IMG/VR virus record: IMGVR_UViG_3300025137_005045
Source: a virus
Lineage: Duplodnaviria > Caudoviricetes
Reading direction: 5' to 3' (one strand)
DNA: 64,000 bases
The stretch's first letter is position 1; every line of letters begins with the position of its first letter. The position numbers and the translations under genes were made by a program. The notes beneath the pieces are model-generated. The model was not told the DNA's origin, did no database searches, and saw only the letters and a program-made list of their open reading frames with translations. Below, piece by piece: positions 10,864 through 46,064 of the stretch.

Positions 10864-10910
10864 AACGTTCATCCCACTGGGACGGAAGTAGGCATAAGCT
10901 GAAGGAACGC
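10864..10910 (+). ncRNA. Glutamine riboswitch (glnA motif)
   Basis: P1 CGTTC/GAACG, P2 TCCC/GGGA, CGGAAGTAG, P3 GGC/GCT, TGAAG: matches the glnA three-way-junction consensus. Confidence 0.85.
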
Positions 10911-10934
10911 TTCTTGTTAAAAGGAGGTAGCTTT

Positions 10935-29287: not shown

Positions 29288-29340
29288 TAAAACAAATTTA
29301 ATTGGTTGACCATAAAATACAAATGTCGTATAATGTGTAC

Positions 29341-29568
29341 ATGAAAGTTTTATTATTAGTATTGTTATTAAGTGGATGTTCTGCATATTCACATAAACCA
29401 GCACCGGATTCGGTAGCTATAATGCCAAATGATTGTGCTAACGAACAAGCATTAACAAACTATCTTGAACAACAAATAGAGAGGACAGATGATGAAGCTA
29501 CTAAACGTCGCTACAAGCATCGTCTTTGGGACTTCCGTTATAATTGCAACCTCGTTGCAAGCAAATGA
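29341..29568 (+). CDS. Small lipoprotein
   Basis: Lipobox LSGC; promoter TTGACC-N17-TATAAT at 29306-29334. Confidence 0.7.
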   Translation: MKVLLLVLLLSGCSAYSHKPAPDSVAIMPNDCANEQALTNYLEQQIERTDDEATKRRYKHRLWDFRYNCNLVASK

Positions 29569-42663: not shown

Positions 42664-42694
42664 AAAAAGTACCCCTTAATTGGGGTATTTTTTT
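42664..42694 (+). terminator. Rho-independent terminator
   Basis: TACCCC-N6-GGGGTA plus T run. Confidence 0.85.
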
Positions 42695-42779
42695 GGTAAT
42701 TTTGGTTGACCAATAAATCGTTATTTGCTATACTTACTTGTAAGTTAGAAAAACAAGTTAATTATTTAGGGGTAGATAA

Positions 42780-43402: not shown

Positions 43403-43491
43403 TTTGATTTTTTTGGTTGACCATAAAATCCAAAACTGCTATAATAGTATTAAGAAATAAGGAAAACGATTAATTTTTAGGGGTAGAGATT

Positions 43492-44438: not shown

Positions 44439-44702
44439 ATGTCAAACACTTTTGTATTTGAACGTAGAGTAATTTACTGGGAAAATACCTGGGTAGATGC
44501 TGATGATATGAATGAGGCCCGAGAAAAGTTACGAAATGGAGAGGCAGATGAATGCCAGCTGGAAGGGTTTGAAGATTACTATGATGACGATTACACTTTT
44601 GTGGAATCATTGGAACCTGTTATCCTTGATCCTTTAGTAGATATGGTTAAACAATATGGGTTACCTGAACAGTTGGAATTATTTGGAGACAATTATACAT
44701 AA
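44439..44702 (+). CDS. Small acidic hypothetical protein
   Basis: SD GGAG; clean ORF. Confidence 0.7.
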   Translation: MSNTFVFERRVIYWENTWVDADDMNEAREKLRNGEADECQLEGFEDYYDDDYTFVESLEPVILDPLVDMVKQYGLPEQLELFGDNYT

Positions 44703-44756
44703 AATGGTTGACCAAAAAATCCAAAACTGCTATAATGTATTTAAGAAATAAGGAAA

Positions 44757-44884
44757 CAAGGTATTATTTGTCGGGGTATAGTGTAACTAACACGACAAAG
44801 ACTAAGGCTCGAGACTTAGTTGGCGATAATAGGGGTTAAGTTTGATCACTTTATAATCCCCTTGCTCCGTCAAATAATACTTTG
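44757..44884 (+). ncRNA. Distorted tRNA-like RNA enclosed by a 14-bp terminal stem
   Basis: Acceptor CGGGGTA/TGCTCCG, D-stem GTGT/ACAC, T-stem AGGGG/CCCCT, elongated anticodon arm, outer stem 44757-70/44871-84; own sigma70 promoter 44708-36. Confidence 0.6.
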
Positions 44885-44983
44885 TTCAGTGGTAGAGTTC
44901 CGTTGCGGTAGCGTCCACTTTAAATAAACGCAGTTGTGTGACAACTTTACGGACCCGGTTTACTGTCCTTAACTTAAACCGGG
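44885..44983 (+). ncRNA. Second structured domain after the tRNA-like element
   Basis: D-arm-like GTTCAGTGGTAGAGT; AGTGG/CCACT; GTTGT/ACAAC; CCCGGTTTA/TAAACCGGG. Confidence 0.4.
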
Positions 44984-45006
44984 CAATTAATTTTAAGGAG
45001 TATGGT

Positions 45007-45090
45007 ATGAATAATTTAGACACAATTCTGCGAGTAGCAGTAGCTATTGTTGTAGCAGTCGTGGTAGTCGGTTTTATAATGGGAGCTTAA
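45007..45090 (+). CDS. Single-TM peptide (27 aa), not in ORF track
   Basis: SD AAGGAG; MNNLDTILRVAVAIVVAVVVVGFIMGA. Confidence 0.55.
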   Translation: MNNLDTILRVAVAIVVAVVVVGFIMGA

Positions 45091-45091
45091 T

Positions 45092-45223
45092 ATGGGAAAC
45101 TTTATTATAGGTACAATATTTGGAATCATTGTTAGCAGTGTGGGACTAACAGAAATAGCAGAATATATCGATTCGGGTGTTAGTGCTACTAAAGATTTTG
45201 TCGAAAATCGTGTTGACAAGTAA
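45092..45223 (+). CDS. Small TM peptide (43 aa), not in ORF track
   Basis: Coupled to the previous ORF. Confidence 0.55.
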   Translation: MGNFIIGTIFGIIVSSVGLTEIAEYIDSGVSATKDFVENRVDK

Positions 45224-45890: not shown

Positions 45891-46064
45891 ATGAGCATTC
45901 ATGAAGATTTATTAGCCGCAGTAGAAACATACCAAGCAGAATCAGAAAAATTTGATGGTGGTAACAAATCAGCTGGAACCAGGGCAAGAGCGGCACTTCA
46001 AAATATTAAAAATCAAGCACAGGCACGTCGTCTAGAAATTCAAGCAATTAAAAACGGCGAATAA
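45891..46064 (+). CDS. Histone H1-like (Hc1-family) protein (57 aa), not in ORF track
   Basis: GNKSAGTRARAAL matches the GNKAAGTRARK signature; SD AGGAG. Confidence 0.75.
   Translation: MSIHEDLLAAVETYQAESEKFDGGNKSAGTRARAALQNIKNQAQARRLEIQAIKNGE

What the first reader, a model, noticed from the sequence alone, without database searches (positions are those of the whole stretch)
44708..44884. Distorted tRNA mimic locked inside a 14-bp terminal helix, under its own strong early promoter
Seen: cloverleaf order is intact. Acceptor CGGGGTA/TGCTCCG, then TA, a 4-bp D-stem with a shrunken 5-nt loop, and an elongated anticodon arm (7-bp GACTAAG/CTTAGTT, 8-nt loop GCTCGAGA). The T-stem AGGGG/CCCCT has a loop starting TT and ending AAT with an inserted hairpin. 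The 3' end is T-CAA rather than N-CCA, and the flanks pair for 14 bp, extending the acceptor. Known: the CGGGGTA-TA opening recalls tRNA-Pro; Y-like RNAs combine a long terminal stem with a tRNA-like module; phage tRNAs can counter anticodon nucleases. Inference: not simple decay, since the insertions are themselves paired. Possibly a decoy for tRNA-targeting defences, a Ro/Rsr-type partner, or an intron-containing tRNA.
Basis: partly seen in the sequence, partly recalled or inferred. Interest (0 to 1): 0.8.

Follow-up and report, generated by a model that had tools for sequence, protein, structure and literature searches.

The report
New four-way-junction phage small RNA
A large marine phage carries, behind its own strong early promoter, a roughly 130-base RNA that folds into a four-armed junction; compensating mutations in related phages confirm the fold, but it is not a tRNA and belongs to no catalogued RNA family.

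Summary
Bases 44757-44884 fold as described (z about -4.5), 14 nt downstream of a consensus TTGACC-N17-TGnTATAAT promoter.

I recovered about 40 copies from metagenomes, 14 of them distinct. In these, 96% of proposed pairs are kept, against 35-53% for slid controls. Eleven pairs show compensatory double changes, and RNAalifold finds the same junction independently.

The tRNA reading is not supported.
- ARAGORN and Rfam find nothing.
- The "acceptor" stem is only the inner part of one continuous 22-bp helix. The U-U mismatch becomes U-A or G-C in relatives.
- There is no GG D-loop and no T-loop. The "anticodon" loop is an invariant 8-mer.
- No Ro/TROVE gene was seen.

The invariant parts are two loops, GCUCGAGA and UUGAUCAC. 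Both hold 6-nt palindromes.

The RNA is an optional cassette.
- One relative has the same promoter and operon without it.
- Another follows it with a second promoter.
- Others carry tRNA-Tyr or tRNA-Arg at the same spot.

The nearest analogue is T4 RNAC/RNAD, the stable RNAs of the T4 tRNA region whose function is unknown. There is no detectable homology.

The most likely reading is a free-standing early small RNA. It would be cut out through its long helix and act in trans through the two loops. Its ends and its function are untested.

The parts
44708..44736 (+). Sigma-70-type early promoter, TTGACC-N17-TGcTATAAT. Predicted start is about 44743-44744.
   Evidence: It is part of a repeated promoter-plus-leader cassette; the copy at 43414-43465 is 90% identical. 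The -35, the spacing and the -10 are kept in front of nearly every full copy, even where the spacer has diverged. The exception is L046, which has TATAAT but no -35.
44743..44756 (+). Short common leader (AAGAAAUAAGGAAAC) shared with other early promoters.
   Evidence: In the empty-site relative L092 this leader runs straight into an RBS.
44757..44884 (+). The conserved RNA: a four-way junction closed by a long helix P1.
- P1: 44757-44778 with 44863-44884, about 22 bp.
- P2: 44781-84 with 44790-93.
- P3: 44800-06 with 44815-21.
- P4: 44831-35 with 44858-62.
   Evidence: Fold. Models R1 and R2 score 163-165 bits on the + strand against 30-40 on the - strand. Covariation. RNAalifold.
44807..44814 (+). 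Loop L3, GCUCGAGA, invariant in all 15 sequences together with its closing G-C pair. It contains the palindrome CUCGAG.
   Evidence: Invariant columns 57-66 of A8. The self-duplex is -9.9 kcal/mol.
44822..44830 (+). Junction J3/4, in the 'variable loop' position. This is the most variable segment: GGCGAUAAU, GGAGGCAUU, GGAGUAGUU and others.
44836..44857 (+). Interior of P4. It holds the invariant UU, a weak inner stem (44838-41 with 44848-51) and the invariant UUGAUCAC (44842-49, palindrome UGAUCA).
   Evidence: The inner stem is paired in 86% of cells and is not predicted by RNAalifold.
44885..44953 (+). Lineage-specific 3' extension. It is present only in the window's close relatives and has no consistent fold.
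   Evidence: Absent from L043, L085-L103 and L134. It is variable, and its predicted fold changes in the marsh variant.
44954..44983 (+). 9-bp hairpin with a 12-nt loop. It is not a canonical terminator: a tRNA gene follows it directly in relatives.
   Evidence: Compensatory change at 44957 G>A with 44980 C>U. tRNA-Tyr starts about 8 nt after it in L046, L077 and L080-84.
45007..45090 (+). 27-codon hydrophobic ORF with an AAGGAG RBS.
   Evidence: Conserved in L003, L046 and L076-84.
45092..45223 (+). 43-codon membrane-peptide ORF (MGNFI.G...), the usual downstream neighbour. It was used to recover the homologues.

Best explanation
This is a new family of phage-encoded small structured RNA. It is a self-contained cassette made of a consensus early promoter, a 14-nt leader and a roughly 128-nt four-way junction.

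Shown:
- The fold is real and strand-specific, and it is kept by compensatory mutation.
- The stems and junctions vary, while two hairpin loops (GCUCGAGA and UUGAUCAC) and the GGGG/CCCC stem never do.
- The cassette is optional. It occurs in front of at least four unrelated downstream sequences, at a spot where relatives carry tRNA genes.

Inferred:
- The host RNA polymerase transcribes it early. It has no terminator of its own, so it lies at the head of a longer transcript.
- The uninterrupted helix P1 of about 22 bp serves as a processing stalk. A double-strand-specific nuclease such as RNase III would cut there, as it does for rRNA precursors and T7 early RNAs.
- The freed junction then acts in trans, presenting the two invariant loops to a protein or RNA partner.

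I put the reality of the structured RNA at about 0.9. The 0.4 given here is for the excised, trans-acting mechanism.
For: - Fold z-scores of -4.4 and -4.5.
- About 40 copies from many ENA, JGI and Logan samples.
- 11 pairs with double changes, 95.9% of cells paired against 35-53% when slid, 0 of 500 shuffles. Independent RNAalifold junction.
- Conserved G-U pairs, and 163-165 bits on the + strand against 30-40 on the - strand.
- A one-base deletion on each side of P1, and no conserved reading frame.
- A promoter at a fixed distance in nearly every full copy.
- The empty site in L092, which has the same promoter, leader and operon.
- L134: a second consensus promoter starts 15 nt after the RNA and serves an unrelated gene.
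- Marsh contigs with different flanks on both sides.
- tRNA-Tyr or tRNA-Arg at the same site in relatives.
- P1 is fully paired over 22-23 bp in the diverged variants.
Against: - There are no data on RNA ends, abundance or processing. The RNA-library contigs that hold the element also contain its promoter and are thin (2-6x), so they do not show transcription from this promoter.
- No terminator follows P1 in any context. In most loci the RNA is physically the 5' leader of the small-peptide operon, which suits a cis role equally well.
- RNase III cleavage is inferred from helix length alone.
- No partner is known.
- The family is narrow. It is absent from Melnitz, HTVC008M, T4, 23 IMG/VR relatives of the neighbouring gene, and the GTDB genomes.
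Confidence: 0.4

Rival explanations
1. It is a cis-acting leader element of the early operon. The junction would stay on the mRNA and set its stability, translation or transcript elongation. Examples are 5' protection from RNase E, an operator for a phage protein, or a put-like element that makes the polymerase read through downstream hairpins.
For: In most loci it sits 14 nt after the start site and directly upstream of the same small-peptide operon. No terminator separates it from the genes. In the window lineage a stable hairpin and a tRNA follow it on the same transcript.
Against: - The operon exists with the same promoter and leader but without the RNA (L092).
- In L134 the next gene has its own promoter.
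- Marsh variants place it before other genes.
- A 22-bp closing helix of -43 kcal/mol cannot act as a switch.
- The one alternative pairing I found (UUUGUC with GACAAA) is not conserved.
Confidence: 0.3
2. It is a tRNA mimic. Enzymes or defences that recognise tRNA would engage it: RNase P, the CCA-adding enzyme, anticodon nucleases.
For: - Cloverleaf order, with a 2-nt UA linker and no linker between P4 and P1, as in tRNA.
- The UA-GU..AACU opening resembles the D-arm start of the tRNA-Arg in L114 (by eye).
- Real tRNAs occupy the same site in relatives.
- T4 RNAC sets a precedent.
Against: - ARAGORN finds no tRNA in this orientation, even relaxed. The Rfam tRNA model gives nothing at E <= 10.
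- There is no G18G19 and no T-loop, so no tRNA elbow.
- The loop in the anticodon position is an invariant 8-mer.
- The acceptor end is buried in a continuous helix, and the -1/73 positions pair in 10 of 15 sequences.
Confidence: 0.1
3. It is a self-associating RNA. The two invariant palindromic loops would form kissing contacts between copies, giving dimers or larger RNA-only assemblies.
For: CUCGAG and UGAUCA are the only invariant loops while every stem varies. L3 is a 6-nt palindrome flanked by purines, like the HIV-1 dimerisation loop (my own knowledge). The self-duplexes are -9.9 and -6.4 kcal/mol, and the chance of two such loops is about 0.003, computed post hoc.
Against: I noticed the palindromes after the fact. 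Invariant loops fit a protein site equally well. In L3 the palindrome can instead close a C-G pair over a UCGA tetraloop. There is no experimental or 3D evidence.
Confidence: 0.1
4. It is a decayed tRNA pseudogene or a functionless spacer.
For: It lies in a site where tRNA genes come and go, and it is dispensable in at least one relative.
Against: Eleven compensatory pairs, paired one-base deletions, invariant loops, and a conserved promoter at a fixed distance.
Confidence: 0.03
5. It is a bacterial-type Y RNA (YrlA-like) bound by a Ro60/Rsr protein.
For: A long terminal stem plus a branched module.
Against: - No TROVE protein among the window's large ORFs or in the 32-kb contig of L134.
- The GNCGAA(N)G motif and the tRNA-type D- and T-loops that define YrlA (PMC4201824) are absent.
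- No Rfam hit.
Confidence: 0.02

Closest known systems
Phage T4 RNAC and RNAD (species 1 and 2 stable RNAs of the tRNA region)
   Same: Small structured RNAs of a T4-like phage (119-139 nt in T4, about 128 nt here). They lie where tRNA genes lie and are co-transcribed with neighbours. RNAC also folds into a branched, tRNA-like shape with z = -4.6. Their function is still unknown (PMC3014915; PMC9697503).
   Different: No detectable homology: R1 and R2 find nothing in T4. RNAC keeps a canonical T arm (GGUUCGAAUCC) and this RNA does not. T4 RNAC/D are classed as late RNAs, whereas this one has a sigma-70-type early promoter.
tRNA
   Same: Four-way junction with the same order of arms. It has a 2-nt UA linker after the first strand and no linker between the last arm and the closing helix.
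   Different: Fails ARAGORN and the Rfam tRNA model. It has no elbow nucleotides, an 8-nt invariant loop in place of an anticodon loop, no free acceptor end, and a 6-nt linker before P3.
YrlA / bacterial Y RNAs (PMC4201824)
   Same: A long stem formed by the 5' and 3' ends, carrying a branched module. YrlA is also known from phages.
   Different: No Ro60/TROVE neighbour, no GNCGAA(N)G motif, and no tRNA-type T- and D-loops.
PeSL promoter-early/stem-loop cassettes of T4-like phages (PMC2839356, PMC4122927)
   Same: The promoter and leader are a repeated, near-consensus sigma-70 cassette in a variable region full of small orphan ORFs. Gain, loss and replacement events cluster at it.
   Different: PeSLs are short regulatory motifs that flank ORFs. 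Here the cargo of the cassette is a 128-nt structured RNA.
rRNA and T7 early-RNA processing stalks (RNase III sites)
   Same: A helix of about 22 bp formed by sequences that flank a structured RNA.
   Different: Cleavage is untested here. The resemblance rests on helix length and continuity only.

Membership tests
tRNA | Recognised by tRNA gene finders and covariance models | tested here: not met
   ARAGORN finds 0 genes in the window. With introns allowed and thresholds at 50-70% it gives only spurious calls, on the other strand or offset. Rfam RF00005 gives no match at E <= 10 on 451-nt and 132-nt searches.
tRNA | 7-bp acceptor stem with an unpaired discriminator and a free or added CCA end | tested here: not met
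   The stem is 7 bp in 6 sequences and 6 bp in 9 of the 15. Positions -1 and 73 pair (U-A or G-C) in 10 of 15. The helix continues for 13-14 more bp.
tRNA | Elbow nucleotides: G18G19 in the D-loop and T54-Psi55-C56 in a 7-nt T-loop | tested here: not met
   The D-position loop is the 5-mer AANNA with no GG. The T-position loop is 21-24 nt and begins UU(A/G)AG.
tRNA | 5-bp anticodon stem with a 7-nt loop (U33, R37) | tested here: not met
   7-bp stem with the invariant 8-nt loop GCUCGAGA.
tRNA | Cloverleaf order of four helices | tested here: met
YrlA / Y RNA | Ro60 (TROVE) gene within about 4 kb on the same strand (PMC4201824) | tested here: not met
   Neighbouring ORFs have no TROVE hit. The large ORFs scanned in the window have none, and the two ORFs over 500 aa are a cyclase and a peptidase. 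There is none in the 32-kb contig of L134, with positive controls ringing. The rest of the 293-kb genome could not be searched.
YrlA / Y RNA | GNCGAA(N0-1)G motif near the 5' end, and tRNA-type D and T loops | tested here: not met
   The motif is absent from 44743-44884. The loops are as described above.
T4 RNAC/RNAD | Sequence and structure homology | tested here: not met
   R1 with filters off on the T4 tRNA region gives a best score of 10.7 bits. R2 on the whole T4 record gives nothing.
T4 RNAC/RNAD | Small stable RNA located among phage tRNA genes | tested here: inconclusive
   Location is met in relatives: tRNA-Tyr is adjacent, and tRNA-Arg sits at the equivalent site. Stability and processing were not testable.
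Any Rfam 15 family | Score at or above the gathering threshold | tested here: not met
   The only hit in the window is the glutamine riboswitch at 10864-10913. The best hit on the element is 16.9 bits, to an unrelated 25-nt plant-virus pseudoknot.
Riboswitch / attenuator | Mutually exclusive conserved pairings linking an aptamer to a terminator or an RBS | tested here: not met
   The only alternative pairing found (44767-72 with 44794-99) is lost in L097 and L095. The downstream hairpin is absent in most family members.

The most novel reading that the evidence does not exclude
The junction is a miniature self-assembling RNA. Its two invariant palindromic loops (CUCGAG and UGAUCA) would make kissing contacts between copies, so the phage would fill the early infected cell with an RNA-only dimer, chain or ring. 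This would be a small counterpart of the large phage-associated RNAs ROOL and GOLLD, which I recall (unchecked here) were recently reported to form RNA-only multimers. Alternatively, the loops are the bait of a new RNA-based anti-defence decoy.
Probability: 0.12. Interest if true: 0.85.

Novelty: new variant of a known kind. Interest (0 to 1): 0.55.

Why it matters
Phage-encoded small RNAs that are neither tRNAs nor riboswitches are few. The classic ones, T4 RNAC and RNAD, have had no known function for fifty years.

This RNA has three properties that make it a tractable new example.
- Its fold is proven by covariation.
- It has two obvious functional loops to mutate.
- Nature has already supplied the controls: an empty-site relative, and relatives with a tRNA in its place.

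It shows that the variable early regions of marine T4-like jumbo phages exchange RNA genes as cassettes, just as they exchange orphan ORFs. If the loops bind a host factor or a defence protein, or mediate self-assembly, it would be a new mode of early host takeover in abundant marine phages.

Tried and rejected
**Searches that found nothing**
- Phage GenBank blastn of the 2-kb region: no match.
- IMG/VR searches with the two flanking proteins: no relatives.
- IMG/VR patterns from the 5' half and the T-arm: none, or random hits only.
- My single metagenome-contig scan was wasted. I wrote a 13-base gap where the real gap is 12, and it returned two chance hits.
- GTDB genomes: no copy with two different patterns.
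- phmmer of the pseudo-ORF against 1.8 billion representatives added nothing.
- R1 and R2 found no copy in 23 IMG/VR loci that encode distant relatives of the neighbouring peptide, in 10 loci of the P0011 group, in Melnitz, in HTVC008M or in T4, and no second copy in the window.

**What worked**
- I translated the RNA as a pseudo-ORF and searched the protein collection.
- I then walked from the conserved 43-aa neighbour.

**RNA-seq evidence**
- Four marsh metatranscriptome runs hold the element. I laid three of them (X17, X18, X21).
- These are assembled contigs at 2-6x depth. They include the promoter and carry foreign flanks.
- They show that the module exists in other phages. They do not show that it is transcribed, nor where it ends.

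**Readings rejected**
- A 23-codon TTG ORF inside the RNA. Its substitutions are mostly non-synonymous, and the family has single-base indels.
- The ops/JUMPstart-like GCGGTAGCGT at 44906-15. It scores 12.9 bits against a threshold of 35 and is changed in the marsh variant.
- The hairpin 44954-83 as a terminator. A tRNA gene follows it directly in relatives.
- A consistent fold for 44885-44953.
- Retron ncRNA: the neighbouring ORFs gave no Pfam hit suggesting a reverse transcriptase.

Full report
**1. What is there**

The window comes from a large AT-rich marine phage of the T4-like group.
- A 683-aa cyclase is 52% identical to that of Methylophilales phage Melnitz and 36% identical to that of Pelagibacter phage HTVC008M.
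- The longest contig carrying the neighbouring peptide gene is 293 kb.

- A TTGACC-N17-TATAAT promoter with a TG extension lies at 44708-44736.
- It is followed by a 14-bp closing stem, a 7-bp stem, a UA linker, a 4-bp stem with a 5-nt loop, a 7-bp stem with the loop GCUCGAGA, and AGGGG/CCCCU enclosing a small hairpin.
- RNAfold gives this as the minimum-energy structure. The z-score is -4.4 with flanks and -4.5 for 44757-44884 alone, and no shuffle of 200 does as well.

**2. Is it a tRNA or a known RNA?**

It is neither.
- ARAGORN finds no tRNA or tmRNA anywhere in the window.
- With introns allowed and thresholds lowered to 50-70%, ARAGORN still does not recover this cloverleaf.
- Rfam 15 gives only a glutamine riboswitch elsewhere in the window.
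- Permissive scans of the element alone return only chance micro-RNA and pseudoknot hits. They return no tRNA, tmRNA, Y RNA or ribozyme.

**3. Finding relatives**

Direct routes failed.
- There was no blastn match among phage records.
- There were no IMG/VR relatives of the flanking ORFs and no IMG/VR pattern hits.

Three routes did work.
- *(a) The upstream 87-aa ORF.* Its homologues led to contig L003, which holds a near-identical element. They also led to more distant phages in which that ORF abuts a nucleotidase gene with no RNA.
- *(b) A pseudo-ORF search.* I translated the RNA as if it were an ORF and searched the protein collection. This found gene calls laid over the RNA on other contigs.
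- *(c) The downstream neighbour.* The 43-aa membrane-peptide ORF at 45092-45223 is the usual downstream gene. Its clusters gave dozens of contigs.

Covariance models R1 and R2 then found about 40 copies on the + strand. These came from many ENA, JGI and Logan samples, and one from IMG/VR. Scores ranged from 165 down to 93 bits.

**4. The structure is real**

I aligned 15 sequences, 14 of them distinct (A8).
- 95.9% of pair cells are standard pairs. The figure is 35-53% when the 3' partners are slid by 1-3 columns.
- Eleven pairs change on both sides: seven in P1, one in P2, two in P3 and one in the inner hairpin.
- None of 500 shuffles reaches the observed covariation score or paired fraction.
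- RNAalifold, given only the alignment, predicts the same P1-P2-P3-P4 junction.
- Several conserved G-U pairs would be C-A on the other strand. The models score 163-165 bits on the + strand and 30-40 on the - strand. The RNA therefore runs in the direction of the promoter.
- A G-U pair of P1 is removed by one-base deletions on both strands in nine of the 15 sequences.
- These single-base indels, together with mostly non-synonymous changes, rule out the small ORF that overlaps the RNA.

**5. What the family says about tRNA likeness**

- The 'acceptor' is therefore the inner third of one continuous 22-23-bp helix.
- That inner stem is 6 bp long in nine of the 15 sequences.
- The loop in the D position is AANNA, with no GG.
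- The loop in the T position is 21-24 nt. Its inner hairpin is only half conserved.
- The loop in the anticodon position is an invariant octamer.
- The YrlA hallmarks listed in PMC4201824 are a nearby TROVE gene, a GNCGAA(N)G motif and tRNA-type loops. All are missing.
- Only the order of arms and the short junctions recall a tRNA.

**6. What is conserved instead**

Every stem except the GGGG/CCCC core of P4 varies. Three elements never vary:
- G-GCUCGAGA-C, the loop L3 with its closing pair;
- UUGAUCAC, inside the P4 interior;
- the UA linker.

Both loops contain a 6-nt palindrome, CUCGAG and UGAUCA. Two such loops have a chance of about 0.003, though I noticed this after the fact. The junction J3/4 is the most variable segment.

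**7. Genomic behaviour**

*Promoter and leader.* The promoter and leader at 44705-44756 are a repeated early cassette. The copy at 43414-43465 is 90% identical and runs straight into an RBS.

*Empty site.* In relative L092 the same promoter and leader run straight into the RBS of a 25-codon ORF and the peptide operon. The roughly 137-nt RNA is cleanly absent.

*Downstream architectures.* They differ between copies:
- a 25-codon ORF;
- a deletion derivative of that ORF;
- in the window's lineage, a variable 3' extension and a hairpin (compensatory 44957/44980), followed in L046, L077 and L080-84 by a genuine tRNA-Tyr(GTA).

*tRNA at the same site.* L114 and L116 carry tRNA-Arg(TCT) at the equivalent place and no RNA.

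*A second promoter.* In the IMG/VR contig L134 the RNA has its own promoter. Fifteen bases after it comes a second consensus promoter that serves an unrelated gene.

*Foreign flanks.* Contigs from marsh RNA libraries carry the module 44699-44995 at about 92% identity, with foreign sequence on both sides.

The RNA with its promoter is therefore a portable, dispensable cassette. It sits at a hot spot where tRNA genes also come and go.

**8. Interpretation**

The cassette behaviour, the second promoter in L134 and the empty site all argue against a leader dedicated to one operon. They favour an RNA gene.

There is no terminator, so the RNA must be released by processing. The long, always fully paired P1 is the obvious handle: it resembles the RNase III stalks of rRNA precursors and T7 early RNAs. 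This step is inference.

The invariant loops are the likely working surface, for a protein, for another RNA or for self-association.

The nearest precedent is T4 RNAC/RNAD. These are structured RNAs of the T4 tRNA cluster with unknown roles. R1 and R2 find nothing in T4, so the relation is one of analogy.

**9. Limits**

- No transcript ends or levels could be obtained. The laid RNA runs are thin assemblies that include the promoter.
- The full phage genome is not held, so further copies and possible partner genes outside the window are unchecked.
- The family is narrow and its sequences are related. The covariation is convincing for P1-P3. For P4 it is uninformative, because the stem never varies, and for the inner hairpin it is weak.

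Noticed in passing
window 10864-10913 (+): Glutamine riboswitch aptamer (RF01739), 60 bits against a threshold of 35. This is the only Rfam family in the window.
   Followed up: no
L046:458-543; also L077, L080-L084: A genuine tRNA-Tyr(GTA) with encoded CCA lies about 8 nt after the hairpin that ends the window's module. It is an insertion/deletion difference from the window, which goes straight from the hairpin to the RBS.
   Followed up: partly
L114:811-887 and L116:393-469: tRNA-Arg(TCT) plus a 62-aa ORF occupy the site upstream of the same small-peptide operon in a lineage that lacks the RNA.
   Followed up: partly
L092:505-660: Natural empty site. The same promoter, leader and operon are present with the RNA cleanly absent. 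This is a ready-made control.
   Followed up: yes
L134:5440-5520 (- strand): A second consensus promoter (TTGACA-N17-TGCTATAAT) starts 15 nt after the RNA. Its leader holds an 11-bp hairpin ahead of an unrelated gene.
   Followed up: partly
window 43414-43465, 44705-44756, 29303-29354, 42692-42732: A family of near-identical early promoter-plus-leader cassettes (TGGTTGACC...TGCTATAAT...AAGAAATAAGGAAA). They are PeSL-like and lie in a region of small orphan ORFs.
   Followed up: partly
window 45007-45090 and 45092-45223; L087:1420-1500: Very small hydrophobic ORFs of 27 and 43 codons, and a 25-codon MYIDRDG... ORF in relatives. All are likely to be missed by annotation. L043 lost the 5' half of the 25-codon ORF by a deletion between TAATTGG repeats.
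   Followed up: partly
window 44906-44915: GCGGTAGCGT resembles the ops/JUMPstart core (12.9 bits, threshold 35). It is altered in the marsh variant, so it is probably chance.
   Followed up: yes
window 44844-44849: The invariant GAUCAC of the P4 interior is identical, not complementary, to part of the single-stranded 3' tail of 16S rRNA (GGAUCACCUCCUUA). I recall that tail from memory and did not check it, and a 6-mer match may well be chance.
   Followed up: no
window 45891-46064; L045:3142-3315: A 57-aa Hc1 (histone H1-like, PF07432) protein is a constant member of the operon downstream of the RNA.
   Followed up: no
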